Assembly: GCA_964458335.1 (NCBI GenBank)
Contig: CAYWIJ010000002.1
Span: 26,379-90,378 of the forward strand
From: an uncultured Candidatus Peribacteria bacterium
Lineage (GTDB): Bacteria > Patescibacteriota > Gracilibacteria > Absconditabacterales > Absconditicoccaceae
Length of the DNA stretch: 64,000 nt
Direction of reading: 5' to 3'
Below are positions 104 to 38,595 of the stretch, piece after piece. Below the pieces are notes generated by a model. It was not told where the DNA came from. It saw only the letters and a program-made list of their open reading frames with translations, and made no database searches. The position numbers were made by a program, and so were the translations under genes. The stretch's first letter is position 1. Every line of letters begins with the position of its first letter.

Positions 104-3100
104 ATGGCAAAAAAATCTACGAGCAATACTCCAGAAAAAGAAAATCTACATCAACAGACAAAAAAGCATGGAGATAATGTATATACTCATGAGATTGCTG
201 ATGCTTTTTCCAAAAAAATGGAAACAAATGATAAGAAATATTTTTCTTGATCTAAAGAACAGATTGTGCAAGATTTCGAAAAATTTGTAGAACAAGAATA
301 CGGTAATCATATCTTACAAGCACTCAAAGATGGTAAAATTACAGGAGAACCTCTCGACATAGAGATGAATGCTATAGTAGATAAATGATTTACCTTATCT
401 GATTTTTTTGATACAAAGAAGTGAGAAGTGATACAGAATAATTTTTCTCGTACGGTTAAAGAACAAGATGCTATGGAGCAGTGACTTTTAGAATTATATC
501 GTGAATGGGATAATCTACCAAACACTACTAAGAATAAACTGAAGTTCGATGATTTTATCCATGTACAAGGATATAGAAAAATAACAGATCCTTCTGGTAA
601 GGTAAGATCCATTACTCCATGACATAATCCTATTTCTCATAATGTACAAACCTTACAAACAGCTTGGAAAGAATATGTTCGTGGTGTTACTAATGATACA
701 GATGAACGTAATGATTATAGTGCATTGCTTGATTTCAAACATTTCGATCCAACGGAGAAAATTGTAGCAGTGAGTGCTGTCCGTGAGTTGTATGAAAACA
801 TCACAAGGAAGACAAAATGACAACAGCGTCAAGATCTTCTTGCTTTGGCTGATAGTATTTTTGATCAGAAAAATCCTATTCCGTCAGATACGACATGGAC
901 GACAATGATAGGTTTGTCTGTGGCCATGAAAGATTTTTTCCAACAAGCAGGATCATTAGCTGATGCAGATCAGTTAAAATCGTTACAAAATATGAGATTG
1001 ACACTCAAAGACTGTGTGAAAAATGCTGAAGACAACAAACTTCTTGCAGAATGAACGCTCGATAAACAACTTTTAAATAGAAAATATTCTGATCTCAATC
1101 GTCAGTTCCAGAATATGGCAAATAGTTTTGTACAAGCTGATTTGATCAACAATATCGATGAAATTGTGGATGAGGTAGATGAAGAAATTGATGAATATGC
1201 GAAAATTTTCGATGTACCAGGTAATATGGCAAAGTTTTTTGAACAATTTTGAACTCCTTCACAACTGACAAATACTTATACTGACCAAAACTATATAAAA
1301 CTCAAGAGAAAAGAACATGAGCTCAGAGAATTGCTAGCAAAATCAGGATTATCGCAATCTGATAAAGAAACCTATAAGGCAGAACTCGTCCAAGTACAAG
1401 GTCAGATCAATAAGCACAAATCTACTCAACAAGTTTTTACGTGGGATGATTATTTTGATCATATTGCCAATCAAATCGATACAGCGAATATTCAGACAGG
1501 AGTATCGATTTTATGAACTGATGTGAAATCTATACTGCAGACATTGAGAGATAATAATTGGGATATCGCTACATTATGATCTGCACAGAATACACTTATG
1601 AAAGCATCTATTGCTCTCCAACTCCTAAAAGTTAAAGATAAACATTCTTTTCAAACTCTCTGATATAGTTTCCAGTCGTATGCACAATTTGTATCATCAT
1701 TGTATGATTTAGAGTCAAAACAAACTATGATTCTGACACAAGATCACGTTCCGATCACTTTGAATTTCACGAGTAAGAAATTTGTAGGTAAACCCTTAGA
1801 ATTTCATAATATTGATGTAAGTGATATTTCATCATTGTCCAATATTCGTGTAGAGTTTGAATTAGACTTGACTGACAATCAGAATGCAGAAAATTTTATT
1901 CGTACGATGACAGGTGGTCCGAATAGTCAACTTGTTCAAGACTTCTTCCCAGAAAAATCAGGATTTCCAGATACGATGACTGATAGTTCATTTGTAGAGA
2001 TGGTGGACAAAGATGGCGTCCGTTATGAATGATACCTGTCTCCTACAGATTTTGTGATGACTGATCAGACTGATGGTATCTATGGAAATGATCCTCAGAC
2101 AGCAGCTAAAACATTTATTCTCTATAGTAAACCAGCCGATCAGCTTCATGTGAATAGAGATTTTGTGACACAAGAAGATGATTCTAATCAGAAAATTTTG
2201 ACTGAATCTGGTAAAGAAAAACCAGTGTATATCAATATTAGTAATCTTCAAGATTGGAAATCGATAGAGATTAAAGATAAAAAAGTTACCTTATCTGACT
2301 GGCAGTTGAAAGCTCTGACACTAGGTCATATGGTGGCTCAGTCACTCAATGCAGATCAGTTGTTAGATCACACTAACCAATCAGTACAACAAATTATTGC
2401 ACAACAAGATGATACTGTAGCTAAAGAATTACAGGAGAATACTCGTGACCTCTGATCTGAATCTCCAGAACAAGCAGAGGCTTTACATGAGTGACTTTCT
2501 ACTGATCAGGAGTTTAATCAGTCTTGGAAATCTCTTTTGTGATGAGATCATCCTTGTGAAGTAGGAAGCCGTATAGCAGTTAAATTCCCTAAATCCATCG
2601 ATGGTAAAAAAACTATAAGGACTTTCCCTGATAGTGAACAACTCTTAAGTATGATGGTAAAGGATCTAAAAAAAGATGAACATGGTAAGGTGATAGGGGC
2701 TACTTTCTGATTTGATACTCTTTCTCGTGTGGGAACATGTACCCTCAAAGATATTACTTTAACAGGGAAACAATTGGATAAAATAAATGATGTATTTTGA
2801 TGATGAGCTACTTATATTGATAATATCAAAAAAGATCCTCAAGATTATAAAACAGTACTATGAAGATTGGAAAATGCTTTTTCAGATTGAGTAAGAAAAA
2901 AATCTTATGCTTGGGATGTTTTGAAACCATTAGACTTTAATGGAAAAGAATTTTTGAAAGATGATAAGAAAGTAACAACATTTGTCTCAACACAAAAAAC
3001 TGCAAATGCTGATGATAAGACTAATAAAGCAGTGTTTGATGTAGAATATCAGATTGAAAGCGTATGATCCAATAAATATCGTATTACATCGACTCCTTAT

Positions 3101-5695
3101 CAGTCAGAAATGGCAGATAAAGATGGTAAATCAAAAACAGCGAATATTGCATTTGATACAACGACAGATCTTGCTGGTATGTTATTGATTTTATCTACTA
3201 AAAAACTTGTACCTTTTAATGAACAAGAATATGTTGATTATAAAAAGAAAGATGGACTATCTTCAGATACTGTTCCACAGGTGAAAAGAAAATGGCATTC
3301 TCTCTCTACATGGCGATCTGTATTATCAGGAAAAGGGAAGGATATTATTGATGGAATTAAAAAGAAATTTAAAGAAAATGAAGAAGAATCGTTGAAATAT
3401 GCCCTATTTACAGAGTGAAGACTCATGCGTAGAGTTGCGAATGGTTGGTTGTGAAAAGTTCTCGATGGATTTGATCTGAATGTGTTGAATGAGATGGCGT
3501 GAGAGATTGAGATTGAATGACAAAATTTTTGATGGAAGAAGATAGAAGGAGTATTTAAATTTTTGGATAGCTTCCATGCTGCAAATAATGCATATGGGCC
3601 ACCTGGTATGTGAATGGTAGAAGGTATAGTGACATGAGCAGTACAAAAGTATAATAGTTGATCTCTGGGGATGAAAGATAGACGAAAAGTAGCTGGAGCA
3701 TTACTATATAGTATTGATAAAATGAAATCATGATATGCAAAAAATTTATCTAAGTATCCAGCTGGTACTTATGTAAAAATATTGTTTGGAGAACAGTATT
3801 ATCATCATTATATGCGTCACTATAAAAATTTAGAATTAGAAGCAAAAGAAAACAGTGATGCAGGAAGAGCTGCACAAGAGCGTCTCAATATGTTGGAATA
3901 TAATTTTATTGTAGCTAATGTAAGAGGAGGTGATGTATTAGAAAAAAACGAACCTTATGTTGTTCAAGATAGTACTAATCCTATTTTCTATTTTCAAAAT
4001 TTATATTCAAGAAAGTTTGGTAATGAATTATGAAATCGTCTTTGAGAATTAAAATCTTTTGAAGTAAACTCAAAAAGCAAAGATGTTAAAGATCTGATAG
4101 ATACGAATAATTTTGATCATGTCTATAATGAATGTAGAGATCATATGTTTGATGTAAGGGTGAAAGATTGTCTCAATGAATTGATTGCACTCCAATATAT
4201 GGCAAAAGATGCAGAGCAAGCAGATAAAGTATCACAACTTTTTATGTCAGGTATTTTAAGTGGAGTATTTGTTAATAATCTTTCAAAATCTAATAAAACT
4301 GATCTCAAAAAATTGATGTTCCAAGCAGGTATTCCTTATGCAGGTTTGATAGAAAAGTATGATGGTCCAGCTAAAATTCAAAAATTGCTCATCTTAGCAA
4401 CAGGTACTACGTCAGGAGATTTTTCACACTTTACCTATGGAAATAATAAAAATTCATACAATCCAAATGATTTCAAATCTTCTGTAGGAAATCAAGATAA
4501 AAAGTGATTAATATTATCATTTGAACAATGGTTTAAAGATCATAGAGATCAAATTATTCCTTTCCTTCATATGGATCCTGATAACATGAAAACCAAGGAT
4601 AACATGATACGTATTTGGAAATCCAAAGAGTCAGATATTGAAGTTTTTGGGAAAAAAGTAGATCCTGACACAAAAAAATTGGTTGATGATGTTATGAAGG
4701 ACTTTTATTATAATACAGGATGAAGACAAATTACTCTTGATGATCTTAATTATGGTAGTGATCTTGTCCATACAGCGAGTATGATAGAACAGACATTCCC
4801 TGTGATCAATCAATATGAAGAAGGAAAACGAAAAAATGACAATAAAGATCATGCTGAGCTTCTTTGGTCAAATATTACTAAAAATGTACCAAGTGGGAAA
4901 GAGACTTTTGATAATAGATATCTCCTTGCTCATAATATTAATAACTTTTTTAGATATTTTGATGGAATTGGTGATATTCATTATAGTAGATGAGCTATAG
5001 AACTTTTTTATAGAAATATGCGTCTGGCACAAGAACAAACGAACCCAAAGGATAGAACACGCTTGATATGGTTCTATCTGACAGATTTGCTCTATGGGAA
5101 AGGACGTGTTCCAAAAGAAGTTGATGAATGAGCATTTAAAAAATATATGGAGTATTTTGAAACTAATCTTGATAATTTTGACGCTAAACTCTGAAAGGAG
5201 CATACTATTCCATCAGGAGAAGGAGATTTTGAAGATGTCTTTACGGATTCTGGCGCTGGAATTACCTATATTCCAGAAAAAAAATGGAGAGAAATTACTA
5301 TTCAGTGACAGCAAAATCAATATTCAAAATGGGCGAGAGCAAATGATACAACCTTACTCAATCTCAAGATGACGAAAGATAATGAGACAAAAAGAATATG
5401 AGGAGGTAATCTCTATGGAAATAATTTTAGTAGATCAATTGGAAAATCTGTTGATGATAAGATAGAGGAGTTGAGAACATGAAAAATCTCTACTATTAGT
5501 AGTGAGAAAGAGCTGATAAGAACTAACCCTATCGATACTAATAATAGAAATAATATAGATTTAGATTCTATTGTTACACCACAAAAATCACCTACTCCAA
5601 TCTTTCTCAATAAGAAAAAATGATGAAAAGATAATGCTTCTTCATATGATGATGTTTTGGAAAATCTGAGAGATGATTTATGAATTGCTGCCTAA
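104..5695 (+). CDS. giant hypothetical protein (1863 aa under code 25)
   Basis: One reading frame from ATG 104 to TAA 5693-5695. Hand scan shows only TGA interrupts it. It joins track ORFs 845-, 1331-, 1700-, 2054-, 3110-, 3782-, 4145- and 4781-. No signal peptide, TM segment or domain recognised. Confidence 0.75.
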
Positions 5696-7311: not shown

Positions 7312-8037
7312 TTATTCTTGATAGTTTGTGAGAGATCCACAAAGCTCTACATTCCCATTTCAAGCTCCTTGTCCTTGATATTCTACTCTTGTACAGAAGA
7401 GAAATTCTTTAGGACTATCATCTCAACAATTACCTCCATCATCGTCTCCATCATGACAGAGAATACTGTCTCCTCATTCAGTATTGGTATTTTTTTGATA
7501 AAGACCTTGAGGAATAATAGCTCTAAAATAGTATCATCCTGTAGGTCTTACTCCTATAAAATTATCATCTCCTATGAGATACGTTTCATCTAGGATATGG
7601 ACAGCATTAGCATTAAGAGATTCTGTTTGACCTATTTCTATTCAATGTCCTGGCAGTTGAATAGGTCATTCAGTATGACGAGGTAGTGAAAAAGATACTT
7701 CACCATCAGGATCATGTTGTAATATATAATACATTCCATTGGTATCAGTTGTAAACCAGCCGTCTCAACAGTCTGAGTTTGTACATAGCCAGTGTTTATC
7801 TTTTTCAGAAGACCATTTGAGCCAGTTGGTGTTTCTACGAGTATACATAGATTCCATACCTTCTCTTGAAAGATTGATCGCAATAGTTTCTTGTCTAATT
7901 TTGTTGACATGTCAGTTTGAGGCGCTGATCATCCCTACAACAGAAGCTATTACAAGAGAAATGATAAAAATCGCGATGAGGAGTTCTATGATGGTGAATC
8001 ATTGTTTTCATCAAGCAGTGGAATGAGGTAGTAGCAT
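7312..8037 (-). CDS. type IV pilin-like protein (prepilin N-terminal methylation domain)
   Basis: MLLPHSTAGGKQG|FTIIELLIAIFIISLVIASVV: short leader ending in Gly, then the F-T-x-x-E-L hydrophobic helix. 241 aa with many in-frame TGA. The frame was hand-scanned with no TAA/TAG. Stop is TAA 7312-7314. Confidence 0.8.
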
Positions 8038-13644: not shown

Positions 13645-13992
13645 AAATTGCATCTGTTGGATAAGCCTGGTTCTGTCGAGATATGATATGTATCTAATCC
13701 GACGTATAGTCGAAATCTTGCACTTCTCCCGATTTGTCGGGATGAGCTTGCACGATGGACGGTTTACCACTCGACTAGCTTCTGCTAGACTGAGTACTAT
13801 GTAGCTATATTTAGTATAACACCATAGACTTTTCACCTTTCACCCCGATAGTTGGGGTTAGTATTGTCGCTGTGGCACTTTCGTTTGACCTATGATAGGT
13901 ATCCAACTGCTGTGAGCAGTTCCATGAGAGTATCGTGCCAGGACTTTCCTACCTTACAGATGTAAGATCATCATATTACAACAGATGCAATC
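13645..13992 (-). ncRNA. rnpB: RNase P RNA (bacterial)
   Basis: The minus strand carries ggtaggaaagtcctgg (GGAAAGUCC), gtgccacagcgacaa, ggggtgaaaggtgaaaag and cgacagaaccaggcttatcc (ACAGAACC-GGCUUA). A 12-bp P1 helix pairs ttgcatctgttg (5', plus coordinates 13979-13990) with caacagatgcaa (3', 13648-13659). The ends are approximate. Confidence 0.9.
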
Positions 13993-14912: not shown

Positions 14913-16226
14913 ATGAAAAAAATATGATCAGTAGTGATCTATGGAAAAGGGAAAGCAATGGAATCAGTATGTAAATTATTAAATCATCTAGGCGTATCTT
15001 ATATCCAAATGGATGATGCAGATGCCAATGAAGAGCTCATCAAAAAATCAAAAATTATCATCGCCACTCCAGGTATCAAACCAAGTCATCGACTCTATAC
15101 GACTTACAAAACTAAGATTATGTCAGAACTCTCTTTTGTTGGTAAGCTCATCAATGATGGGTATTTCTCACGATGGCATAACATACAGATTATATGAATT
15201 ACAGGAACAAATGGTAAAAGTACTACAACTTGGGTACTCTATCAAGCTTGTCTCTTATTACAAAAAGAATATAATCCTGACCAGAATCATAGTATCTATA
15301 TTGGTGGGAATTGGGATATACCCTTGAGTGGAATCTTATATACTATTATTTCAGAAGGAAAAACAGAGGAGAAGAGTACTATTATTTTAGAATGCTCTTC
15401 ATTTATGTTATGGAATTTACAAAATTTCAAATTTTCCTTAGGAATTTTACTGAATATTGCACCAGATCATATTGATCGACATGGATCGATGAAGGACTAT
15501 CTACAATCTAAACTCAATATATTGGCATACTCTGAGACTGCTATTACAACTCCTGAAATAAAGAATGATGTTTTAAAAGATCAGATGCGATGAATTAGTC
15601 TGCTTCATAGATTGCGACCATTTCGACGACAGACGAATAGACCCAAAAATTGGTTGAGTTATGATGCATTATGAGATTTTTATCATCCCTTATTCTTAGG
15701 ACAACATAATGCATATAATTTTGGTGCAGTAGATAGGGTATTACAACAACTTTATCCTGGATATGATCTAAAAGTTTTACAACAAATAGAGCCCGTAGCA
15801 CATCGCTTACAGATTATACCTTTAGCGAATGGAATGAATATGATAGACGATAGTGTCTCAAGTAGTGCACATGCTTTAGCAGCTGCGATTGATGCTATGG
15901 ATCCTCCTATTACATTGATTGCTGGTGGCTACGATAATGGAGAAAATTATGATGCACTTCTTCAAAAATTATCTGATAAAGTAAGAGTGGGGATTTTCTA
16001 TGGTCAAACTCGTGTACATCTCTATCCATTGTGAAAACAAGTAATTACTGATGTGTATATGGTAGAAACTCTCGAAGAAGCGATGAATCTTGCTCTCGAA
16101 GAATCAAAAAAACATACTATTCAGACTATATTATATAGCCCAGGAGCAAAAAGTTTTGATCAGTTTACGAATGTGTATGATAGGATAGCGACATTTGAGA
16201 AGCTGGTTAGTGGATTGGTTGCTTAG
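14913..16226 (+). CDS. murD: UDP-N-acetylmuramoylalanine--D-glutamate ligase
   Basis: MKKIGSVVIYGKGKA.., ITGTNGKSTT (first G = TGA 15195-15197), LNIAPDHIDRHGS and LGQHNAYN. Four track fragments are joined in one hand-scanned frame. Stop is TAG 16224-16226. Confidence 0.9.
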
Positions 16227-16299
16227 CTCTTAGGTATTGATTTTTTTCTTCTGTGCTTCGAAAGTAAAGATGTAATAAAAGGTAACTGATATAACAATG

Positions 16300-16337
16300 A
16301 AAAATCTCGCAATGACAATCATTGTGGCAGATTTTTT
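16300..16337 (+). terminator. rho-independent terminator after murD
   Basis: aaaaatctcgcaatgacaatcattgtggcagatttttt: an imperfect stem followed by a T6 run. Shares a 19-mer with the hairpin after the HIT gene. Confidence 0.6.
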
Positions 16338-16422
16338 CTATATGCATTTTTATAAGTCATGATCTAGTATATTCAAACAATAAATGCTTGTCAACTAGTC
16401 TAGAGCCATTACATATCTCCCA

Positions 16423-17679
16423 TTAGGCACAAATATTGATACCATTTACCCAAATATTTATTCCATATCATTTCGCTGCTATGATGGAACAATTACTTTG
16501 AGATAAACTCATAATAGGATTATTATAAGCCTGAAGTGTATTGATATAAAAATAATTTGAAAGATCTGGAAGAGTACTAATGCTGTTGTTGTTGAGATAT
16601 ATAAGTTGTAATGCAGGTACTTGTGATAGTGAAGGGAAAGTTGAGATATTATTGTATTGTAAGAGGAGTTGTGTAAGAGCGGGGAGATTATATAATGTCA
16701 CTGAAGGAATGGCATTATGTTCTAGTAATACATATTCTAAACTTGGTAAGTTCGAGAGATTGATAGGAGTTGCAAGATTGATATTATTTCTTACTTGTAA
16801 TTGTTTCAATCTTCTTAAATTAGAAAGAGGAGGGAGATTTGATATGGAAGTCCCATCAATTACAATTCCTTCTAATGCGACAAGTTTGTTGATGGCACTT
16901 GGAATAAGGATAACATCAGATTTATTGGTAATATTAAATCGTGACATATTTTGACATAGATTTTGCTTACTAATAGAGGATTGGTTAATAAGAGCTCATA
17001 ATACAGGTACTTCTTCGTCAGTAAGATGAGCGATACATCGAGCTACAGGATCATCAGTACCGTTGTAGATGTCAATCGGTGCAGTAGGCTCTTCGATTTT
17101 ATAAGTAAGTCCTCTTCATATGACATAAAAATCTCCTTGTTCAGAATCTATTGCTCATTTGCAGTTTGTTGTATTTCCTCTTTTGGATTCTCTCATGGAC
17201 GTCATTGCATATACTTTACCTTTTTGATCTGTATAGTAAGCAAAAAAATTCCCTTCTGATTTACATTCTCCTGATGAGTTAGTGGTGAGTCCATATCAGG
17301 TATCTTTTGGAATATCACTCATATAAGGAAGTATAAAAGAGGAAATTTTGGCAATATTATTGAGAGATGGTATTCCTGGTATAGATTCTGTTGTACTAGC
17401 AAGAAAAGTATCACGATATGACCAAAAAGGAGCTACAGGATATACTCCACTATGTTCTATGGAATAAATTTCAAGAGCAGTAGATATCTGATTCATATTG
17501 CTGATACGTACACTATCACGAGCACGAGCTTGCATTCCTTGAATCTGAGGTACAAGAGAAATGATAAGAAGACCGATAATGATGATAACAATGATCAATT
17601 CTACTAGTGTAAATGCCTTGTTGTGAGAGCGAGAAAAGAATTGTTTTGATCTCGGTGTTATATGATAATAAGAAAACAT
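16423..17679 (-). CDS. type IV pilin-like protein fused to C-terminal leucine-rich repeats
   Basis: Track ORFs 17296..17679 (..SHNKA|FTLVELIIVIIIIGLLIISLV prepilin signature) and 16468..16947 (LRR units such as LSNLPSLEYVLLEHNAI, LYNLPALTQLLLQYNNI, LSQVPALQLIYLNNNSI) are one frame interrupted only by TGA. 418 aa. Stop is TAA 16423-16425. Confidence 0.8.
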
Positions 17680-17828
17680 GAGAAAATCACAACAAAATAG
17701 AATATATAGAATGTATGTATATATTTGAATGAATAATTCAAGAAGAAATGGATTTCTTTATAATTCAATTGATTCAAGTGAGCGATTCAGTACTTTTAGT
17801 ATCTAATGATTTATTCTTTGTTGCTAAA

Positions 17829-18536
17829 ATGTCACGTACCAAATTGATCAGATATACAACAGCTCAAGATGAGCCCATGATGATTCAGTCAGGAAAACTA
17901 TTTTTTGAAAAATGTAAGGGAAAACGAAGATCTGACTATTTTGGAAATAATAATCCGATTGTTTTAGAATTGGCTTGTGGTCGTGGTGAATATACGGTGG
18001 GTCTTTCTCAAATATATCCGAACAAGAATTTTATCTGAGTAGATATTAAAGGAGAGAGAATGATGATGGGAATTAGAAATTATAAATTATGAATTGAAAA
18101 TTTTAGATGAGAGTATAATTGAGGATTTAAAATTCAAAATTTAGAATCTCCTAACATTGCTTTTCTTCGCACGATTATTCATCATATTGATAGATTTTTT
18201 GATGAGGGAGAAATAGATGAAATATGGATCGTTCATCCTGATCCAAGATCAAAGTGACATGATGAGAGAAGGAGAATTACTTCTCCACGTTTTTTGGCTA
18301 TGTATGCAAAGATTTTGAAATCTGATGGAATACTAAGACTCAAGACTGATGATGATGGAATGTTCGAATATTCTAGCGAACAGTTTAATCAGTTTGGATT
18401 CCATTATATTGATAGTACACGAGATTTAGATCAGTCTCCGTTAGCAGCTCATCACCATGATATAGAAACTCATTATGGAAAATTATTCAAAGAAGAGTGA
18501 AGAACAATCAAATATGGAATTTGGAGAAATAATTAA
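17829..18536 (+). CDS. trmB: tRNA (guanine-N7)-methyltransferase
   Basis: [19 protein letters not shown] (G = TGA), [11 protein letters not shown] and ILRLKTDD. The start was chosen at MSRTKLIRY. Stop is TAA 18534-18536. Contains an in-frame low-complexity insert. Confidence 0.85.
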
Positions 18537-18683
18537 CTTTACAATAAATATTAAATAATTAAAATAATAAATGTCATTATATAGTGAAGTCACAATGATA
18601 TAATTTTTGGTCTTGTATGAAAAAGAATATATAATTCGTTATGAACTCAGAATATTGAATATACTTTGATTGATAATTATATA

Positions 18684-20015
18684 ATGACTCCCCAGGTAGA
18701 ACAATTTAAAGAACAACTTAATAACTCCATTATCAACGCTGATGTTGTGAAGATTTTTGATAATCTTTTAACAATTGCTGTGGAAATAGGAGCTTCTGAT
18801 GTGCATATTGAAGCATTTGAAGATTATTGTAGGATGAGATTAAGGATAGATGGAGAATTAGAAGAACTTGTTCAATACCCTAAATCAATTCATGAAAGTA
18901 TTATCTCAAAATTCAAAATTGAATCTGGACAAATGAGACCTGACGAAAGAAGATTACCTCAAGATGCTAGAGTATCTACTATTACTTTGACCAATAAAGA
19001 AATTGATCTGCGTGCCTCTACACTTCCTACGGTTTGGTGAGAGAAGTTAGTAATGCGTATTGTAGATAAATCAAAGAAAACACCAAAACTTGATGATCTT
19101 GGTATTGAATGATCAAATCGTGATATTATTCTTCGTCAGTTGGAGAGTCCAAATGGTATTATTTTGACTACATGACCTACGGGATCAGGAAAAACATCCA
19201 CACTGTATGCTGCTTTGAATTATGTAAATAGTATTGATGTAAATATTACTACTTTTGAAGATCCAGTAGAAAATAAAATGCACTGATTGAATCAGTCACA
19301 AGTAAGGTCTGATATTGGATTTACGTTTGGATCAGGTTTGAGAGCGGCACTGAGACAAGATCCTGATATTATCATGGTGTGAGAAATCCGTGATGGAGAA
19401 ACATTAGAAATGTCGATGGAAGCTGCCATGACAGGACACTTAGTATTTTCTACTATCCATACGAATTCATCAGCTGAAACTATTACGAGAGTATTCAATC
19501 TCTGAGCTTTACCTTATATGGTAGCTGGTACATTTAATGTAGTCATGGCACAGAGATTGGTCAGAAGAGTGTGTTCTACGTGTAAAAAAGAAACTACTAT
19601 TACAAATTCAAAACATTGGAAAGAATCTATAGATGCTTTTCGTGGTTTAGATACCAATGTCCTCAAAGCAGAGATACTTTCGAGAGGTATTGATCCGCTA
19701 CAATGGAAAAATTATGTTACAGAATGAAAAGTAATACAAGGAAGCTGATTAGCAGAAGATGGAGTTAATAAATGTCCTACCTGTAATGGATCTGGTTATA
19801 AATGAAGAGTCTGAGTGTATGAAATGATGGAATATACGGATGAAATTAGAAATTTTCTTATTGGAGGTAAAACTGCTTATGAAATAGAAAACTATGCATT
19901 GAGTAGGGGGATGATCAATCTTGAAAGAGATGGTATTCTCAAAATTATCAAATGATATACAAGTTTAGATGAAATTTATAAGGTTGTAAAACATAAATCC
20001 TCTAGTTCTTCATAG
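18684..20015 (+). CDS. pilB: type IV pilus/T2SS assembly ATPase (PilB/GspE family, short form)
   Basis: [17 protein letters not shown], Walker A TGPTGSGKT (G = TGA 19173-19175), [19 protein letters not shown], and tetracysteine [16 protein letters not shown]. 443 aa. The frame was hand-scanned. Stop is TAG 20013-20015. Confidence 0.9.
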
Positions 20016-20050
20016 TTTCTTCTTGCTTTAATTATTTATATAGTATTATA

Positions 20051-21160
20051 ATGGCATCTTCAAATCAACTCAATAAAAATAATATGCTACAATGGTGGGA
20101 TAAGTTTTTCGCATCATTTAATAAACCACCGATGCCAGTAAAGACAAATTTTTTCCGTCTCTTGGCAGTAGGGCAAAAAGTGGGACTCTGATTGAGAGAA
20201 AGTTTGATCAGTATTGAAAGTTCTGAACACAATAAGGTGATGAAGGCTATTATTTTGGATATGATTGAACATGTAAGTCAGGGAGATCCACTTTCAAAAG
20301 CTATGGAACAACATTCCTATTTCTTTAGTTCAACAGAAATTGAATTGATCAAAGCAGCTCAAGGAATGGGTAATCTTCCAGATACTTTAGAAGGTATTGC
20401 ATTAGAATTGGAAAATTTTGCTACTATTGTTAAAAAAATTAAAGGGGCTCTGACCTATCCTATTACTCTTCTTACGTTTACAGTGTTGGCTGTTGTGATA
20501 TTGATGATTAAGGTAATCCCAACGATTGTAAGTCTCTTTCCTTCTAAAGAAGCATTGCCACAGATTACGAGAATTGTACTAGATATATCTGATTTTATGA
20601 TAGCACGATGGTGGGTATTGTTGATATCTATTGTTTCTATCATATCTGGATATAGATTGTTATATAAATATTTCCTTCCTTTCAAAATTTTGATTGATGG
20701 TATTATATTGAAGATACCTGTTGTAGGAAGTGCATTTAAGACTTTTTATATGTATAGGTTTGCTAAATTGCTTTGAGATTTTATGTTTGCAGGAGTAGAT
20801 CAAATTAGTGCCATGACTCAAATTGCAAGAATATTTGATAATTTCTTCTATAAAAAGAAAGCAGAGGATATTAAAGCTGATTTGAATGCATGATTTACGT
20901 TTTCAGATACTATTGAGGGATCTGGATTATTTGATCCTATTCTGATCCAAATTATCGTCGTAGGAGAAAAAACGGGTAATCTCTGAGAAATCCTTCAAAC
21001 GATGTCTTGATTCTATAAAGAACAATTGATGACAAAAATTGGAAATGTAATGGCATTTATTGAACCGATCTTACTTGGATTTATGGCAACAATTATCTGA
21101 TCTATCGTAGCATCGATTTTCCTTCCGATGACGGATATGGTGAACCAAATTTCATGATAA
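20051..21160 (+). CDS. pilC: type IV pilus platform protein (PilC/GspF family)
   Basis: Two GspF-type repeats (FFRLLAVGQKVGLGLRESL.., FAGVDQISAMTQIAR..GEKTGNLGEIL) and three TM regions. Stop is TAA 21158-21160. Confidence 0.9.
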
Positions 21161-31440: not shown

Positions 31441-32433
31441 ATGATTATACCTAATAAATTAAAGAAAGGAGATGAGATAAGAATTATTGCTCCCTCTCGT
31501 AGTTGAAGTATATTTCAGGATGAATTTTTAAATTTAGCAAAAGATAAGTTAGAATTATTATGATATAAAGTTACTTTTTCAAAAAACATTTTTAATAAAG
31601 ATATTTTATGATCTTCATCAATAGAAGATAGAGTATCAGATTTGCATGATGCATTTTGAGATTCTTGTGTTAAAGCAATTATTACTATTATTGGTTGATT
31701 TAATATAAATACTATTTTGAATCATTTAGATTATAATCTTATAAAAAATAATCCCAAGATACTTTGTGGATATTCAGATATTACAGCATTACAAAATGCA
31801 CTATGGAAGAAGATATGATTAGTGACTTATTCTTGACCACATTTTTCAACATGGGCCATGAAAAAATGATTTGACTATATACAGGAATACTTTTTAAATA
31901 TTGTAACACAAGATTATCCTGTATCAATTTATCCCTCTCATGAATACAGTGAAGATAAATGGCATAAAGATCAAGATAGTAGAATATTTCTAGCGAATTG
32001 ATGATATAAAATATTAAAATATTGAATATCTACATGAAAAATTATTTGAGGTAATTTATGTACATTGAATCTATTACAATGAACAGAATATATGCCAGAT
32101 CTAAAGAATTGTATAGTATTTATTGAAGATGATAATATTGCGTGATCAGCAGGAGTGTTTGAATTTGAAAGAAATTTTCAGTCGCTTATGCAACAAAAAG
32201 ATGCTAAATATATTAAGTGATTGTTAATAGGAAGATTTCAAAAGGATGTGGATATGACAGAAGAGAAACTAAAGTATATTGTTTTATCAAAGACAGATTG
32301 ATTAGATATTCCTATTATATCAAATCTTGATTTTTGACATACATATCCTATGATTACATTTCCTATATGAGGTGTTATTTCTATAGAGGCTATTAATGAA
32401 AATGATATATCTTTAACTATAGAAACTCATTAA
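31441..32433 (+). CDS. S66-family serine peptidase (LD-carboxypeptidase / MccF-like), copy 2
   Basis: LKKGDEIRIIAPS, GYSDITAL, FIEDD and LDFGHTYP. 330 aa with about 20 in-frame TGA. Every codon was checked to TAA 32431-32433. Confidence 0.85.
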
Positions 32434-32459
32434 TAATTTAAGATTACTATACTATAATT

Positions 32460-32822
32460 ATGCAGGGCTTGTTAATAATAAAACCAGATGCTTTTAGAGA
32501 AAAAATTGATAAAGAAATACTAGATATATTATCTAATAGATGAATTGTTATAGTAAATGCTTTATATAAAGAAATATTATATGAAGATTTAAGACAATTA
32601 TATTTAATTGATATCTATCCTATGAGTATATCAGCTCATGATATTTTATTAGAAATATATTCATGATGTTCTACAATTTTAATTGTTGAATGAAATGATA
32701 TATTTAATAAATTGATGAAGGTTAAAAAAGAAATTAGGGAAAAATATAAAAAACAGTATTGATATATACATACCAGTGATAATAAACTTGAATTTGAAAG
32801 AGAAGTGAAAATTTTTATATAA
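32460..32822 (+). CDS. nucleoside-diphosphate-kinase-like small protein
   Basis: LLIIKPDAF at the N-terminus and YGYIHTSDN, which resembles the NDK NxxHGSDS catalytic-His motif. 120 aa. TAA 32820-32822 overlaps the convergent gene end. Confidence 0.6.
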
Positions 32823-34455
32823 ATAAATCTTTTATAGTAGTAATATTATCTAATAAAAGACTTTTAATGGAGTCTCTCTCATAGATTGTTCATATAAGGC
32901 TATTATCTATAGAATTATATTCTATGATTAAATGTTTTTTGTATCATTTTTTTATCATATATTTTAATATTTTTCATTTTTTATATATATTGTATGGATA
33001 TTCTTCTATGATAATATTCTCTTTAAATCTTATATAGTCTATGTATTCTCTTACTTGTTGATATTTGACATCAATAGGAATATTAATGGATATTCCAACT
33101 TTAGGTGATAATTCTAATATGTTATTTCATGTTTTTGTTTCTATAAGTTGTATGAGTCTTTCAAGACTGAATCCAATTCATGTTCATTGTATTAGAGGTC
33201 ATCATAAATTTTTTGTCATAAAATCATAAGAACCACCATCAGCTGTTTTCTTAGAAGACCCTGCAAAAATTTGATAACACAAACCATTATAAAATCAATT
33301 TCAATCTAATTTTCATAAACAAAATCTTATGTTTTTTATTCAATTATATTGCATTTTTTGAATAAAACTATTGATTTCATTTACTCTTTTTAAAAGAAAA
33401 GAGAATTTTTTGCTTAACTCTGATAACAGTTGAATACTTTGATTGTGATTGTTTCAACAAGATAGTAATCATAAAATTATCATGACCTGTTTCTCATTTA
33501 TTCAATAATTTTGAAGAAGTGTTTTTATATTATTGTGTGTTTTTTCTCTAATAATTTGATATACAATATTATCAATATCTATTTGCGATGGTTTATTGTT
33601 AAGAAAATAATAAAGTAAGTCTTTAATTATATCTAAATGGCTAATTTCTATATAGTAATCTTTTAATCAATAAATACTTAGAAACTTTAGAAAAATTGTT
33701 ATAATTTCTGTCGCTGCAAAGTCGTTATCTAATCAATATGTTTCTATTGCCAGCATCTCAAATTCTCTTTTTCTATTTTTCCCTGAACGGTAGCGATATA
33801 CGTTTCCAGAGAAGAATAGTTTAATCGGTAAATTGTCTCTAAAATTTGGATTATTGAGAATTGCGCGACTAATAGGTCAATTAATATCTGGTCTTAATAT
33901 AAGTTCACGATTAGACTTATCAAAAAATGTATATGACTTATCTCAGGGATAATAAGGTGCAGTTAATTTAAAAATATCAGAATATTCAAATATAGGAGTT
34001 TCTATTTTTTGAAATCAATGAGATCTCAGAAGCTTAAAGAAAGAATGTTTTAAATGTTCTGCTTTTTGTAAATATTCATCATTTAGATCACTTGTTCCAC
34101 GAGGAGTTTGTATTTTATTTTTATCTCTTATAACTTTAAATGATTGATAAAATTTATTTTTTTCATCCCAAATATATTGATTGATTTCTTGTATGATCTT
34201 ATTATCTGATAATTCAATACTATTAATAATATTAGATTTATAAGTATTTATAATATTAGTAATTTGTACACAAAATAAATTTCTATCACTTCAATTTACA
34301 TCTAATGTGTCTATTAGTTTATAAATATTTATACAAGCTTCATCTAATATAGATTGTATATTTTTTTTATGTTCTTGTAAAATAAGGAATTGTTTTGAAA
34401 AATTTATGAAAGATTCATTAATAAATAATTTTAAATGATCTTTATTATTTATCAT
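32815..34455 (-). CDS. divergent HisRS-like class II aaRS paralogue with N-terminal extension
   Basis: 546 aa, all codons hand-scanned. PRGTSDL, IETPIFE, LILRPDINGPISR, KREFEMLAIETYG and GIGFSLERL match the HisRS/HisZ fold. Catalytic signatures are altered: GNGFYNGL replaces RGLDYYTG, and GGSYDF replaces GGRYD. The N-terminal extension is about 115 aa. Confidence 0.75.
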
Positions 34456-35764
34456 TATGACTTAATGTATTAAATAAATTTTCCATAGTAACTTGTATTT
34501 GATCTCAATTTTTAAGATCTTTTAGGTACATATCAGTTCCATTATTTAATATAAGAAAATTATTTATACCTCTTTTTTCTGAAAATTTAAATTGATTTCA
34601 TATTTTCTTATTAAAATTAGGTATTATTTCACACGATATAAAATTATTTCTTAAGATATTTGCAATATTATTTGCTGTATTTCTTTGACTTTCACTATAT
34701 CATCAAATCATTAATTGTGTATTGAATAAGTTTTCTGTATTAATTTGTTGTAAATGATTTAATAATCAAAATAATCTTGTAAGTCATAAAGAGAATCAAA
34801 CACCTGGTAGTCTTTTTCAACTTATCATATTTGTTAAATTATCATATCTACCTCATCAACATATACTTATATTTCATAGTGTTTTTAATTTTCATTCAAA
34901 TATAGTTCCTGTATAATATCATAATCAACGCACCATATTAATTTTAAATTTGATGCAATGTGAGATATCGTTACTAACATTAGACATAATTTCTTGAATT
35001 TCGTTTATTGCATTATTAATTGTGATGTCGCCTTGATATATCTCAAATATTTTAGATAAAGATTGAGAATCGAAATCTATATCTCAATTATTAATAAATA
35101 AGTCAATTACTGAAGTTGGTATGTTAATTCTTTCTAATTCTTGTCTACATTGTTCACTTCATATTTTATCTAGTTTGTCTACTATATTAAGAAATAATTG
35201 CTTACTAGAACCATCTATATGATAAAAATTACATATTCAATCTATTAATTTGCGATTATTTATATATATATAAAATTGATCTGGGATTATTGTGTTTAGC
35301 GCTTTAACTCACATTTCTAATACTTCAGCATCATAATGTAATGGTAATGTTTCAATACCTATTACGTCAATATCGGTTTGTAAAAATTCTCTATATCTTC
35401 ACATTTGAGGTCTTTCTCATCTTCGACATTTTTGTATTTGATAGCGTTTAAATGGAAATGTTAAATTATGAAAATTATCAACTGTATATCTTGCAAATGG
35501 TACAGTTAAATCAAAATGTAAACCTAATTTAGGTTTTTTATGTTCATTTTCTTCAGAAGAAATATCATTGTACCTTCCAACACCATAAATTTCTTTATCG
35601 TCAGATCATTTAGTTAATAGAGTATCTAATGATTCTACTGAAGCTGTTTCAATAGGTATATATCAATAGAGCTTATATATGTTTTTTACTTTATCTATCC
35701 AAGATTCCATCAATAATTGTTCTTTAGGTAGTAACTCGGGAAATCAATTAATTGGAGAATTCAT
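34445..35764 (-). CDS. hisS: histidine--tRNA ligase (complete)
   Basis: [44 protein letters not shown] (motif 2), [20 protein letters not shown] and GVGFSLGLTRL, plus an anticodon-binding-like C-terminal domain. 439 aa with about 25 in-frame TGA. The frame was hand-scanned. Confidence 0.85.
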
Positions 35765-35834
35765 GATGTGAATAAAATGATATAAATTAACTATATTAAT
35801 AATTATATTATATATATATGTCAATAGAATTTAT

Positions 35835-36653
35835 CTATCAAATAATCTGTGTGTCTATATTATTCTGATAAAAAGGAATATATTCTTTAAAGAATTCTAT
35901 TAAAAATTTATTAATTTTTTTCTTATTATTAATAGGGTCATATTCCCAATCTAATACTTGTCTCATTTGTACTTTGAATTGAGGATATAGAGAAATAAAT
36001 TCTTTGTAACATATTTTAACGTCTGGTGTATAAATAGTTTTATGAAGCATAACTATTCATAAAGCAGATCTTAATATAGTTCTCATAATCCATCTACATA
36101 AAAATTCATTCTTTTTTCTTTCTCATAGGTAGTAAAATACTTTATTATCATTATATAAATAGGATCTTAATTCTTGTAGATAAGCTGGTAAATTTTGATA
36201 TAAATATAAAAATAGTTCTTTTCATACTTTATAATTTTGCAGACCGCAACATATATCCTGTCAATATAATAGTGCAGATTGAGCTAATAAATTTATTCTT
36301 AAAAGATTATATTGAATTGAATATAATACTTCATCTAATGATACTATTCATAAGTCATAAAAAGATATGTTGGGATCTATTAATGATAATTCTCTAGTTG
36401 TTTTTTTTATCCAACATACATCTTCATAAGAAACACTATTATTTATGATACATACAAAATCAATGTCTGAAAATCAATATTTTGCTGTTCATACGCTTAC
36501 ACTACCTCTGAGATATATTGAAATTATTCTATTTTTAAAATATTTTTTCATCTGAATTATTGTAAAATCAATAATCTGATGATATTCTTTTGCTATTTTA
36601 TTGATATTTCAAGTGTTTTGAATATATCAATGATAGTCAATTTGTATACTCAT
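35835..36653 (-). CDS. AadA/ANT-like nucleotidyltransferase (Pol-beta superfamily)
   Basis: IYLRGSVSVGTAKYGFSDIDFVCI matches the GS-x(9-10)-SD[IL]D motif of adenylyltransferases. The helical C-terminal domain resembles the AadA C-terminal region. 272 aa. Extends track ORF 35838..36050 upstream through TGAs. Confidence 0.8.
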
Positions 36654-36672
36654 GATAATTATATGATGAAAA

Positions 36673-37932
36673 TTAAATATTTTCTTTATCAAGATTAATG
36701 TGATTATATGGTCATTCTAGTTCTTGTGGTATATGATGATCAGCAATTAGTATAGTACAATGAGATTTATTATGATATTGATTGATGATATTAATAATAT
36801 TGTGTTTTGATACATCATCTAATCATGTAAATGGTTCATCTATTATCAAGAGTTCAGGCTCTTTATTTATGACTGATAGTGTTACTAATAGCTGCTTTTG
36901 TCCTCTACTTAAGAAAAAAGGATGCAAGTCTTTATATTTTAGTAATCAAATAAGCTCTAATTGCTTAATAATATCATCTGTTACTCATATAGTATCTTTT
37001 CAAAATTGAATTTCTCTCAGTACACTTCTTTCAAAAAGTTGTTTTTCAGGTTCTTGTAATATAAATCAATAGCTTTTAAATTTTTTTTTTATATGTCCTG
37101 ATATTGGTTTATGTTTTCATCTTATTAACTGAAGTATTGTAGATTTTCATATTCAATTACCTCCTGTGATTATATTGATTGATCATTTTTTTATATTAAA
37201 GTTGATATTTTGAAGTATTGGTATTTTATTAGAATAATGAAAATTTATATTAGATATTTCAATAATATTACCTCATTTTAGATCACTTTTGTCACTTGAT
37301 TGTAAGACAGATCTTTCTATTATTTTTAAAGATTTATTTGTTTTTAGATTAATATATTGATTAAATATTTCTAATAATTCTTTTTCATGAGTAGCAATAA
37401 ATACTATTTTATTATGTAATGATGTGGTTATATAATTCTTAAGAATATTGATATTATAAAAATCTAAGTTTGCAGTAGGTTCATCTAATAAAAGGATAGG
37501 ATTATCAGAAGATAATATAGAAATTAGGCTAATGATTTTTCTTTCACCAGAAGACAAATCTTTGATTAAAGAATTTTTTTTATTTTTTATTTTAAATAAT
37601 TTAAGGAGGTAATTAGCTGTTTCTTTTTCTTTATTATTAAGATAAAAAAATATTTCATGATAAACTGTATTAAAAAGAAACTGATTTTCAGGATCTTGAA
37701 AACTCATTTTAATGATATTATCTTCTGTAGTATTATGAGATATAATATAATCTCATTGAAAAATATTATCTATTTTTAATCAAGAAATTAGTCTAAGGAA
37801 TGTTGATTTCCCAGATCAAGTATCTCATAATATCCCAATGATATCTCATTTTTGAAATTCTTGAATAATGTCTTGGAAGAGAATTTCTCAAGTGTCTTTA
37901 TTGAATAAACTCTTTATATTAATAGTAAACAT
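36673..37932 (-). CDS. fused tandem ABC ATPase (ECF EcfA-EcfA' type)
   Basis: Two nucleotide-binding domains. The first has GDTGSGKST / LSSGERK / LLLDEPT. The second has GGNGIGKST / LSRGQKQ / LIIDEPF. 419 aa. Extends track ORF 37273..37707. Confidence 0.85.
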
Positions 37933-38595
37933 TTATTTTTTAATATTTAGATGAAAACTATCATTTAATGTTTGTATCCTTTTAATATGAGAAAGAAAAA
38001 TATTTCCTCAAATATAGTAAATTTTTTTTATTTTCTTTCATATAGAGTTGCTTTTATATTGACGTGATTCCAAAGCAGTAAGAGTAGTATCAACATCTCT
38101 CATAATATAGTTAAATGTATTTAGTGCTATAGTAATAGTAAGAATAATATTTTTTGGTAATTTTATATATATAAGAAAATTCATTAATTCATCTTCAGAT
38201 ATTATAGATATATATAATATTCATGAGAATAATATACTTAATGTTTTTAATATTACTATTATTACTTTATGAATTGTATTAGAAGAAATAAAGCTTCATC
38301 GAGGTCGTTCTAATAAAATTCTTCCTTCTACTTGACTAAATAATATTCGAAATAAGGAACATGTAATAATGAAAATTCATATTCGTCTAAAATATTGTCC
38401 ATATATTCTAAAAAATCAAATGAAGTATAATATAATAAATGCTAATAAGAGTGTGACAAGATAAAAATATATATTATTATAAAATATTAATAATAATCAA
38501 ACAAAATGAAAGAAGAATACTTTAATAATAAATGGTATTGTAAATCGTATAGAGTTATCCTTTAAAGATACAGTGAAAGTACTTTTATAAGCCAT
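37933..38595 (-). CDS. ECF transporter transmembrane (T, CbiQ/EcfT-like) component
   Basis: 220 aa with 5-6 hydrophobic segments and a C-terminal coupling-helix-like TALESRQY motif. Its stop abuts the ATPase start (TAAATG, same frame). Confidence 0.7.

What the first reader, a model, noticed from the sequence alone, without database searches (positions are those of the whole stretch)
16423..17679. Pilin fused to a leucine-rich-repeat domain, a candidate adhesive pilus subunit
Reading TGA as Gly fuses two track ORFs into one 418-aa protein. It has a class-III signal and N-terminal helix (HNKA|FTLVELIIVIIIIGLL), then a pilin-like globular region. After that come at least five 22-24-residue LRR units (LxxLxxLxLxxNxI pattern), which are classical protein-protein interaction modules.

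The gene lies next to trmB, pilB and pilC. For a CPR organism thought to live attached to other cells, an LRR-tipped type IV pilus subunit is a plausible host-recognition device.
Basis: partly seen in the sequence, partly recalled or inferred. Interest (0 to 1): 0.65.

Follow-up and report, generated by a model that had tools for sequence, protein, structure and literature searches.

The report
Type IV pilin carrying an LRR module
A bacterium that reads TGA as glycine (probably from the SR1/Absconditabacteria group) encodes a genuine pilus subunit whose outer end is a leucine-rich-repeat binding domain, so it is a credible but untested candidate for how these tiny cell-attached bacteria grip a partner cell.

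Summary
On the minus strand, 17679 to 16423, there is one 418-codon reading frame with five in-frame TGA codons, ending in TAA. TGA means glycine here: it sits at the PilB Walker-A glycine, at conserved GyrA glycines, and at glycine columns of this protein's own relatives.

The protein has four parts:
- a prepilin signal (22-residue leader, then FTLVE with Glu5, Gly14 and Pro22);
- a pilin core that matches free-standing pilins of about 175 to 310 aa;
- a short proline-rich linker;
- a capped solenoid of seven LRRs, predicted with confidence, closest to internalin B, SDS22 and repebodies.

Three cysteine pairs are invariant.

The fusion is not an artefact. An independent assembly is 100% identical. 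Four other protein clusters from TGA-recoded organisms (437 to 470 aa, 29 to 35% identical) share the same co-linear architecture.

It fits the known class of modular type IV pilins (S. sanguinis PilB/PilC, Saccharibacteria PilX1/PilX2). The pilin+LRR architecture has been catalogued once but never studied.

The link to pilB/pilC is weak. The gene lies antisense in a variable slot between murD and trmB, and that slot holds no pilin in every close relative whose contig covers it.

Filament incorporation, tip position and host binding are all inferred. I rate it a new member of a known kind, of moderate interest.

The parts
16423..17679 (-). Whole gene: 418-aa modular prepilin (ATG 17679, TAA 16423-16425) with five in-frame TGA=Gly codons at 17296-17298, 17155-17157, 17116-17118, 16996-16998 and 16468-16470
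   Evidence: TGA=Gly
17614..17679 (-). Leader peptide, aa 1-22 (MFSYYHITPRSKQFFSRSHNKA). Predicted prepilin-peptidase cleavage after Ala22.
   Evidence: Pfam N_methyl aa 17-42; TIGR02532. Matches to mature pilins in PDB filament structures begin exactly at F23. ATG 17679 is the first start codon of any kind after the upstream stop.
17437..17613 (-). Pilin alpha-1 helix, aa 23-81 (FTLVELIIVIIIIGLLIISLVPQ...), with Glu5, Gly14 and Pro22 in mature numbering
   Evidence: Profile hits to T. thermophilus PilA4 (6xxd, 3e-17), Geobacter PilA, PulG (5wda), M. xanthus PilA and S. sanguinis PilE1. F23, T24 and E27 are invariant.
17095..17436 (-). Pilin globular core, aa 82-195, with the 'IPKD' motif and the invariant Cys139...Cys173 pair
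   Evidence: Homology to pilins lacking LRRs: P0002 (44% over 41% of the query); P0167 (36% over 36%) and P0173 (32% over 41%). Invariant Cys pair. Structure model low-confidence here.
17050..17094 (-). Proline-rich connector, aa 196-210 (EEPTAPIDIYNG...), conserved as HPxTPPTRYNG in the closest homologues
16945..17049 (-). Three-helix LRR N-cap, aa 211-245, bracketed by invariant Cys215 and Cys242
   Evidence: Model m22367cadff87: helices at aa 211-218, 223-231 and 238-244, pLDDT 80-93. Invariant Cys.
16501..16944 (-). Seven leucine-rich repeats of 21-23 residues, aa 246-393 (SDS22/internalin-like LxxLxLxxNxI...)
16426..16500 (-). LRR C-cap, aa 394-418, with invariant Cys397 and Cys417
17680..17827 (.). 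148-bp divergent intergenic region between the pilin ATG and the trmB ATG (17828). Presumed promoter region for both genes.
   Evidence: trmB start placed by alignment to L089/L090. Promoter-like hits are uninformative in this AT-rich DNA.
18684..21160 (+). pilB (T2SSE ATPase, 18684-20015) and pilC (T2SSF platform, 20051-21160): the filament assembly motor that such a pilin would need. Not co-transcribed with it.
   Evidence: Pfam T2SSE 6e-113, T2SSF 2e-39

Best explanation
The gene encodes a bimodular ('modular') type IV pilin.

Shown:
- It has a class-III (prepilin) signal, a pilin alpha-1 helix with Glu5, Gly14 and Pro22, and a pilin core homologous to pilins that lack an LRR module.
- A conserved proline-rich connector joins the core to a capped seven-repeat LRR solenoid.
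- Three cysteine pairs are invariant.
- The whole architecture is conserved in at least four other protein clusters from TGA-recoded bacteria.

Inferred:
- A prepilin peptidase cuts after Ala22.
- The PilB/PilC machine lifts the hydrophobic helix out of the membrane into a type IV filament.
- Because the 210-residue LRR module is bulky, the subunit is a low-abundance (minor) pilin sitting at or near the filament tip.
- The concave LRR face binds a protein or other surface ligand on a partner (host or prey) cell, so pilus retraction pulls the small cell onto its target.
- Its patchy presence among close relatives suggests an accessory, possibly partner-specific, adhesin.
For: Architecture.

Pilin membership:
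- The profile of the N-terminal 205 residues hits filament-forming pilins of solved pili at E 3e-17 to 1e-8. Most alignments, including the best (6xxd PilA4), start at mature residue 1.
- The core is homologous to pilins that lack an LRR module.

LRR fold:
- Foldseek matches InlB, SDS22, repebody and InlF at probability 1.0.

The fusion is real and conserved:
- P0082, P0163, P0164 and P0165 are co-linear over 85-99% of the query, with six invariant Cys.
- An independent contig is 100% identical.

Other support:
- Different pilin cores in Gracilibacteria carry LRR modules. In P0176 the LRR module aligns from the Cys at the end of the N-cap to the first C-cap Cys.
- A motor is present: pilB and pilC are 1 kb away.

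Precedent:
- In Saccharibacteria, deleting the accessory-domain pilin PilX2 halves host binding (PMC11623550).
Against: - There is no expression, processing or filament data.
- The pilin globular core could not be modelled with confidence (pLDDT below 50).
- The residue at -1 is Ala (Thr in three homologues), not the canonical Gly.
- Glu5 is retained, so nothing in the sequence marks it as the very first (tip-most) subunit.
- The gene is not co-oriented with pilB/pilC, and the adjacency is not conserved.
- No prepilin peptidase, pilM/N/O or pilT was recognised in the window, though only about a fifth of the ORFs were scanned. A motif scan for the peptidase found nothing.
- The substitution pattern in the LRRs of three close homologues shows no bias between the concave strand positions and the rest (10/60 vs 15/67, p=0.5). 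There is therefore no signature of ligand-driven selection.
Confidence: 0.6

Rival explanations
1. Pilin-like anchor without a filament. The class-III signal and hydrophobic helix only tether the LRR receptor in the cytoplasmic membrane or in a very short pseudopilus, as with archaeal 'bindosome' substrate-binding proteins or T2SS pseudopilins. The LRR would then act at the cell surface rather than on a long pilus.
For: - NCBIfam's best N-terminal match is the T2SS pseudopilin GspG, but only 38.9 bits against a cut-off of 88.85.
- The gene is not in an operon with other pilins or with the motor.
- The 22-residue leader is unusually long.
Against: - The alpha-1 helix carries Glu5, Gly14 and Pro22 and matches filament-forming major pilins from residue 1.
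- The core is homologous to ordinary small pilins.
- A membrane-tethered LRR would sit beneath the cell wall or S-layer.
Confidence: 0.15
2. Shaft subunit. The protein is a major or abundant pilin, and every copy projects its LRR outward, giving a filament coated with LRR domains rather than an LRR tip.
For: - Its N-terminal helix resembles major pilins (PilA4, PulG, PilE1) rather than the core minor pilins.
- Glu5 is conserved.
- PMC8179133 notes that a position in the filament body cannot be excluded if the linker is flexible.
Against: - The gene is absent from the corresponding locus in every sampled relative at 70-92% GyrA identity whose contig covers the slot. This is unexpected for an essential structural pilin.
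- The mature size of 396 aa is far above typical major pilins, and also above the 229-249 aa pilins of related organisms that lack LRRs.
- The connector is short and conserved, not a long flexible tether.
Confidence: 0.12
3. Filament subunit with a non-adhesive ligand. The LRR binds DNA or a secreted or periplasmic partner as part of a competence-type uptake pilus, not a host cell.
For: - NCBIfam shows a weak ComGC-like N-terminus: 34.2 bits against a cut-off of 75.
- Papers on this radiation propose type IV pili for DNA uptake (PMC8080830, PMC11452946).
Against: - The closest LRR relatives by sequence and fold (InlA/InlB, SDS22, SHOC2, repebodies) are protein binders.
- No DNA-binding motif was detected.
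Confidence: 0.08
4. Artefact: a mis-assembly, frameshift or pseudogene joins an unrelated pilin fragment to an LRR gene.
For: Public gene calls split or truncate the protein: P0001 starts at Met62 and P0263 at Met49, and both are translated with TGA=Trp.
Against: - The frame is uninterrupted for 418 codons (chance about 2e-11).
- The independent Logan contig is identical over 3.9 kb.
- Four homologous clusters share the same co-linear architecture and invariant Cys.
- GC content and TGA usage are typical of the host genome.
Confidence: 0.02

Closest known systems
Modular type IV pilins of Streptococcus sanguinis: PilB (pilin + vWA) and PilC (pilin + lectin) (PMC8179133, PMC9934059)
   Same: An N-terminal class-III signal and a small pilin module are joined by a short linker to a bulky, generic binding domain. 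These pilins are minor pilins and adhesins. That paper's Dataset S1 even lists one protein with the architecture IPR012902-IPR001611 (pilin + LRR) among 264 architectures.
   Different: The grafted module here is a Cys-capped LRR solenoid, not vWA or lectin. The leader is 22 aa and ends in Ala, against 7 aa ending in Gly. The organism is a TGA-recoded candidate-phyla bacterium. No experimental data exist.
Saccharibacteria (Nanosynbacter lyticus TM7x) minor pilins PilX1 and PilX2 (PMC11623550)
   Same: These are pilins of an ultrasmall episymbiont with C-terminal accessory domains, proposed as tip adhesins. Deleting pilX2 roughly halves host binding.
   Different: The accessory domains there are a beta-jelly-roll and a beta-propeller with suspected glycan binding. 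Here it is an LRR, which usually binds proteins. PilX genes lie in pilin loci, whereas this gene stands alone.
Listeria internalins InlA/InlB and eukaryotic SDS22 (22-residue LRR class)
   Same: The repeats are 21-23 residues of LxxLxLxxNxI type with a helical N-cap. These are the best PDB sequence and fold matches. In Listeria the domain is a cell-surface adhesin or invasin.
   Different: There is no inter-repeat Ig-like domain and no LPXTG or GW anchor. The NCBIfam internalin_A score is 32.7 bits against a cut-off of 1600. Anchoring is through a pilin module. Disulfide-type Cys pairs bracket both caps.
Tip-located bulky minor pilins and pilus adhesins: ETEC CofB, V. cholerae TcpB, T2SS GspK, PilY1/PilC (as reviewed in PMC8179133)
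   Same: A large extra domain is carried to the filament tip on a pilin or pilin-binding carrier and mediates ligand contact or initiates assembly.
   Different: There is no sequence similarity beyond the pilin N-terminus. GspK lacks Glu5 (from my own knowledge, not tested here), whereas this protein keeps it. PilY1 is not itself a pilin.
Other LRR-bearing pilins of Gracilibacteria (P0166 = MDD2907238.1, 567 aa; P0176, 580 aa)
   Same: The N-terminal signal is of the KAFTLVE type, and there is a C-terminal LRR module. In P0176 the LRR module aligns from the Cys at the end of the N-cap to the first C-cap Cys.
   Different: The pilin cores are different and larger (P0176 has a Pfam T2SSG domain and a Ser-rich tether). 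P0166 has about 12 repeats of 23 residues. They are not orthologues of the window protein.

Membership tests
Type IV pilin / prepilin (class III signal peptide) | N-terminal methylation/cleavage motif recognised by curated models | tested here: met
   Pfam PF07963 scores 25.7 bits (cut-off 21.2). TIGR02532 scores 18.6 bits (cut-off 16.3).
Type IV pilin / prepilin (class III signal peptide) | Gly at position -1 of the cleavage site | tested here: not met
   The residue is Ala22. The homologues have Gly (P0082) or Thr (P0163, P0164, P0165). Other pilins of this lineage also have 'KAFTL[VI]E'. This looks like a lineage peculiarity, but cleavage is unproven.
Type IV pilin / prepilin (class III signal peptide) | Glu at mature position 5 and a hydrophobic helix of about 20 residues with Gly14/Pro22 | tested here: met
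   Read directly from the sequence: F1-T-L-V-E5 ... G14 ... P22. F23, T24 and E27 are invariant in all alignments. The alignment to solved filament pilins starts at residue 1.
Type IV pilin / prepilin (class III signal peptide) | Alpha/beta globular head packed on the C-terminal half of alpha-1, often with a disulfide-bonded C-terminal loop | tested here: inconclusive
   There is sequence homology to pilins lacking LRRs up to about aa 190, and an invariant Cys139/Cys173 pair. AlphaFold confidence is below 50 in this region.
Type IV pilin / prepilin (class III signal peptide) | Processing by prepilin peptidase and polymerisation into a filament | not testable with these tools
   This needs biochemistry or filament proteomics. 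No prepilin peptidase gene was recognised in the window (motif scan; only part of the window was scanned with Pfam).
Modular pilin (sensu Raynaud et al. 2021, PMC8179133) | N-terminal IPR012902 pilin motif plus an extra, well-defined domain not specific to pilus biology | tested here: met
   N_methyl and LRR_8 both score above their gathering cut-offs in one polypeptide. The pilin+LRR architecture is listed once in Dataset S1.
Leucine-rich repeat proteins | Tandem LxxLxLxxN repeats forming a curved solenoid | tested here: met
   LRR_8 scores 32.3 bits (cut-off 27). There are seven repeats of 21-23 aa. The model shows seven evenly spaced strands at pLDDT 80-97. Foldseek matches LRR structures at probability 1.0.
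Listeria internalin family | N-cap + LRR + Ig-like inter-repeat region and a cell-wall anchor (LPXTG or GW) | tested here: not met
   NF033189 scores 32.7 bits against a cut-off of 1600, and NF033188 18.3 against 1050. The protein ends 25 residues after the last repeat, so there is no room for an IR domain or anchor.
T2SS major pseudopilin GspG / competence pilin ComGC | Full-length match to the equivalog model above its cut-off | tested here: not met
   TIGR01710 scores 38.9 bits against 88.85 (aa 22-81 only). NF040999 scores 34.2 against 75 (aa 21-77 only).
Genetic code 25 (TGA = Gly; Gracilibacteria/Absconditabacteria) | In-frame TGA at conserved glycine positions of universal proteins | tested here: met
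   The PilB Walker A and Asp-box motifs and GyrA 'GNFGS' carry TGA at Gly positions. TGA columns align with Gly in homologues. Named GyrA relatives are mostly SR1/Absconditabacteria at 60-63% identity, with one Gracilibacteria hit at 61%. No tRNA gene lies in the window, so tRNA-Gly(UCA) was not seen.

The most novel reading that the evidence does not exclude
The LRR pilin is a strain-variable partner-specificity determinant of SR1/Gracilibacteria pili, the functional analogue of a phage receptor-binding protein. On this reading, a Cys-capped LRR cassette has been grafted repeatedly onto different pilin cores in TGA-recoded candidate-phyla bacteria. It is then gained, lost or relocated between close relatives, so that which bacterium the epibiont or predator can seize depends on which LRR pilin it carries.
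Probability: 0.2. Interest if true: 0.7.

Novelty: new member of a known kind. Interest (0 to 1): 0.45.

Why it matters
[quoted passage not shown] Only Saccharibacteria have genetic evidence, and there an accessory-domain pilin contributes to host binding.

For SR1/Absconditabacteria and Gracilibacteria, papers mention only 'type IV pili' and 'giant surface proteins'. A defined, small and conserved pilin-LRR gives a concrete molecule to express, label and use as bait for the partner's receptor.

There is also an annotation lesson. Public gene calls translate this gene with TGA=Trp and start it at Met49 or Met62, so the pilin signal is lost. Surveys based on such calls will under-count modular pilins in recoded lineages.

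Tried and rejected
- **Whole-protein search of representatives.** The work-around alignment A2 yielded a profile of only 357 positions, without the N-terminal helix. It therefore says nothing about the taxonomic spread of the family.\n- **First structure model (13-sequence alignment).** It was poor, with mean pLDDT 50. The second, with the homologues added, resolved the LRR and caps but not the pilin head. The relative orientation of the two modules is therefore unknown.\n- **Test for selection on the concave LRR face.** Among three close homologues there is no bias.\n- **Search for insertion scars.** No direct or inverted repeats flanking the gene were convincing.\n- **Promoter and terminator scans.** They are uninformative in 32% GC DNA.\n- **Literature search.** I found no characterised LRR-bearing pilin.\n- **Membership rejected.** The protein is not an internalin, GspG or ComGC, on curated score cut-offs.\n- **Operon with pilB/pilC rejected.** Strand and synteny argue against it.

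Full report
**Observation**

The feature is a gene on the minus strand from ATG 17679 to TAA 16423-16425.
- Under the standard code it is broken by five TGA codons, at aa 128, 175, 188, 228 and 404. Only two fragments exceed 100 aa.
- With TGA read as sense it is a single 418-codon frame. At this composition (32% GC) the chance of no TAA or TAG in 418 codons is about 2e-11.

TGA clearly encodes glycine in this organism.
- It sits at the Walker-A glycine of PilB (TTXPTGSGKT), in MVXEIRD, and in GyrA GNFXSIDGD.
- Within the protein itself, TGA-188 aligns with an ordinary Gly codon in all four homologues. TGA-175 and TGA-404 align with Gly or TGA.
- Named GyrA relatives, at 60-63% identity, are mostly candidate division SR1 / Absconditabacteria, with one Gracilibacteria hit at 61%. 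Code 25 is known only from that lineage and Gracilibacteria (PMC11452946).

**Anatomy**

- **aa 1-22:** a basic leader.
- **aa 23 onward:** FTLVELIIVIIIIGLLIISLVPQ, that is Phe1, Glu5, Gly14 and Pro22 of a mature type IV pilin. Pfam N_methyl and TIGR02532 both exceed their curated cut-offs.
- **N-terminal 205 residues:** a profile built from the family hits pilins of solved filaments: T. thermophilus PilA4, Geobacter PilA, PulG, M. xanthus PilA, S. sanguinis PilE1 and Neisseria PilE. E-values run from 3e-17 to 1e-8, and most alignments, including the best, begin at mature residue 1.
- **aa 82-195:** homologous to pilins of TGA-recoded organisms that carry no LRR module. P0002 is 44% identical over 41% of the query. 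P0167 and P0173 are 173-182 aa pilins covering about 40% of the query. This region contains an invariant Cys139/Cys173 pair.
- **aa 196-210:** a conserved proline-rich connector.
- **aa 211-245:** a three-helix cap bracketed by Cys215 and Cys242.
- **aa 246-393:** seven LRRs of 21-23 residues.
- **aa 394-418:** a C-cap with Cys397 and Cys417.

The LRR part is supported by several lines:
- It passes the Pfam LRR_8 cut-off.
- It matches SHOC2, InlA/InlB and SDS22 in PDB sequences at 1e-17 to 1e-9.
- It is modelled at pLDDT 80-97.
- By fold it resembles repebodies, InlB, SDS22 and InlF.

The pilin head was not modelled with confidence in either run.

**Is the fusion real?**

Yes.
- A Logan contig from run SRR16798008 is 100% identical over window 15502-19438, covering the gene and both junctions.
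- Four other 90%-identity clusters share the same co-linear architecture: P0082 (437 aa), P0163 (437 aa), P0164 (450 aa, in an NCBI assembly) and P0165 (470 aa, with one extra repeat). They are 29-35% identical over 85-99% of the query, and all six cysteines are invariant. Their many Trp residues at Gly columns show they also come from TGA-recoded genomes.
- Public gene calls of the window protein begin at Met62 (P0001) or Met49 (P0263) and use TGA=Trp, which hides the pilin signal. ATG 17679 is the first start codon of any type after the upstream stop, and the conserved pilin motif lies upstream of Met49, so the long form is the right one.

**Context**

The gene lies between murD (14913-16226, +) and trmB (17828-18536, +), followed by pilB, pilC, a DHH phosphoesterase, a HIT protein and gyrA. 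It is antisense to all of them.

| Relative | GyrA identity to window | What sits between murD and trmB |
|---|---|---|
| L089 | 70% | nothing; 1 bp between the two genes |
| L090 | 77% | nothing; 127 bp between the two genes |
| L085 | 92% | beyond trmB: a small membrane protein and a glyoxalase; the contig ends before any murD |
| L086/L087 | 81% | beyond trmB: an integrase and an ABC transporter; murD not seen on the stretch fetched |

- In L089 and L090, murD-trmB-pilB-pilC-DHH-HIT is one co-directional block.
- No prepilin motif occurs in any of these loci.
- L088 (about 76% GyrA identity) has a rearranged gyrA neighbourhood and is not comparable.
- In the distant clade carrying the homologues (GyrA 59-65%, MurD 31%), the order is gyrA, pilin-LRR, murD. 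No pilB or pilC lies within 10 kb.
- Proximity to murD therefore recurs, while proximity to pilB/pilC is particular to this strain.
- The gene behaves as an accessory gene in a variable slot.
- Its divergence from the distant homologues (31-33%) is similar to that of MurD (31%), so it is not evolving exceptionally fast.
- GC content and TGA usage match the host genome.
- No flanking repeats mark an insertion.

**Mechanism**

The shown facts are the architecture, the conserved fusion, the extracellular-type cysteine pairs and a nearby assembly ATPase and platform.

From established knowledge of type IV filaments I infer four steps:
1. A prepilin peptidase cleaves after Ala22.
2. PilB/PilC extract the helix into a growing filament.
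3. The subunit is presented at low copy, probably at or near the tip, because of its bulky module.
4. The LRR binds a ligand.

The third step is the argument made for modular pilins in PMC8179133, which also concedes that a shaft position is possible.

The nearest sequence and fold relatives of the LRR module are protein binders. Within the same radiation, a Saccharibacteria pilin with a C-terminal accessory domain (PilX2) is needed for normal host binding (PMC11623550). I therefore favour a partner-cell adhesin.

I put about 0.95 on 'genuine pilin-LRR fusion protein', about 0.7 on 'incorporated into a filament' and about 0.45 on 'binds a partner cell'.

**Comparison with what is known**

The protein meets the definition of a modular pilin.
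- Raynaud et al. counted more than 1,200 such proteins in 264 architectures. Their Dataset S1 lists a single pilin+LRR (IPR012902-IPR001611) protein.
- No characterised example turned up in the literature searches.
- It fails the curated cut-offs for internalin, GspG and ComGC.
- Other Gracilibacteria pilins carry LRR modules on different cores (P0166, P0176). Others carry fibrinogen-like, discoidin, laminin-G or DUF285 domains. Grafting binding modules onto pilins is thus a recurrent theme in this lineage.

**Verdict**

The genomic-context argument is weakened, and the functional claims remain inference. This is a new member of a known kind (modular type IV pilins) with a rarely seen module. 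It is useful as a concrete candidate adhesin for SR1/Gracilibacteria but not categorically new. Interest 0.45.

Noticed in passing
window 31441-39186: Eight consecutive ORFs have GC of only 0.20-0.26, against 0.32 for the window. They include a HisRS-like gene at 34445-35764 and what looks like an ABC-type ATPase at 36673-37932 (both read from the translations, not scanned against Pfam). They use TGA for Gly more often than all GGN codons combined. This is a compositional island, perhaps acquired from an even more AT-rich recoded relative.
   Followed up: no
window 62514-63875 (+): A 453-aa protein has FG-GAP repeats and a Por_Secre_tail (type IX secretion sorting) domain. It contains no TGA among 40 Gly codons. 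A Bacteroidota-style secretion signal is odd in this organism, which suggests recent horizontal transfer or a chimeric contig end.
   Followed up: partly
window 48043-50409 (+): A 788-aa secreted protein has DUF285 repeats (Pfam 2e-87) and a marginal S-layer-homology match near the C-terminus (20.7 bits against a cut-off of 20.8). It is another probable surface or adhesion protein.
   Followed up: partly
window 7312-8037 (-): A second prepilin gene of 241 aa ('GKQG|FTIIELL', N_methyl 26.9 bits, canonical Gly at -1) has a Cys- and Gly/Asp-rich C-terminal part. It may be a partner minor pilin.
   Followed up: partly
window 13646-13988 (-): Bacterial class A RNase P RNA, 109 bits. No tRNA genes occur anywhere in the 64 kb.
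   Followed up: no
window 104-5695 (+): A 1,863-aa ORF with 45 in-frame TGA codons. Giant proteins are noted as candidate host-attachment factors in Absconditabacteria (PMC8080830). It was not scanned against any family library.
   Followed up: no
window 16227-17827 compared with L085, L086/L087, L089, L090: The murD|trmB junction is a variable slot among close relatives. It is empty in two, holds a small membrane protein plus a glyoxalase in one, and an integrase plus an ABC transporter in another.
   Followed up: yes
public protein records P0001 and P0263 (same gene as window 16423-17679): Database gene calls start at Met62 or Met49 and translate TGA as Trp. The prepilin signal is therefore missing and five Gly residues are wrong. 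This will be a general pitfall for pilin surveys in recoded lineages.
   Followed up: yes
L001 18446-19359; L003 15141-15524: Small genes with the Pfam T4SS_pilin domain (VirB2/TrbC-like) lie about 7-8 kb from the homologous pilin-LRR genes in the distant clade.
   Followed up: no
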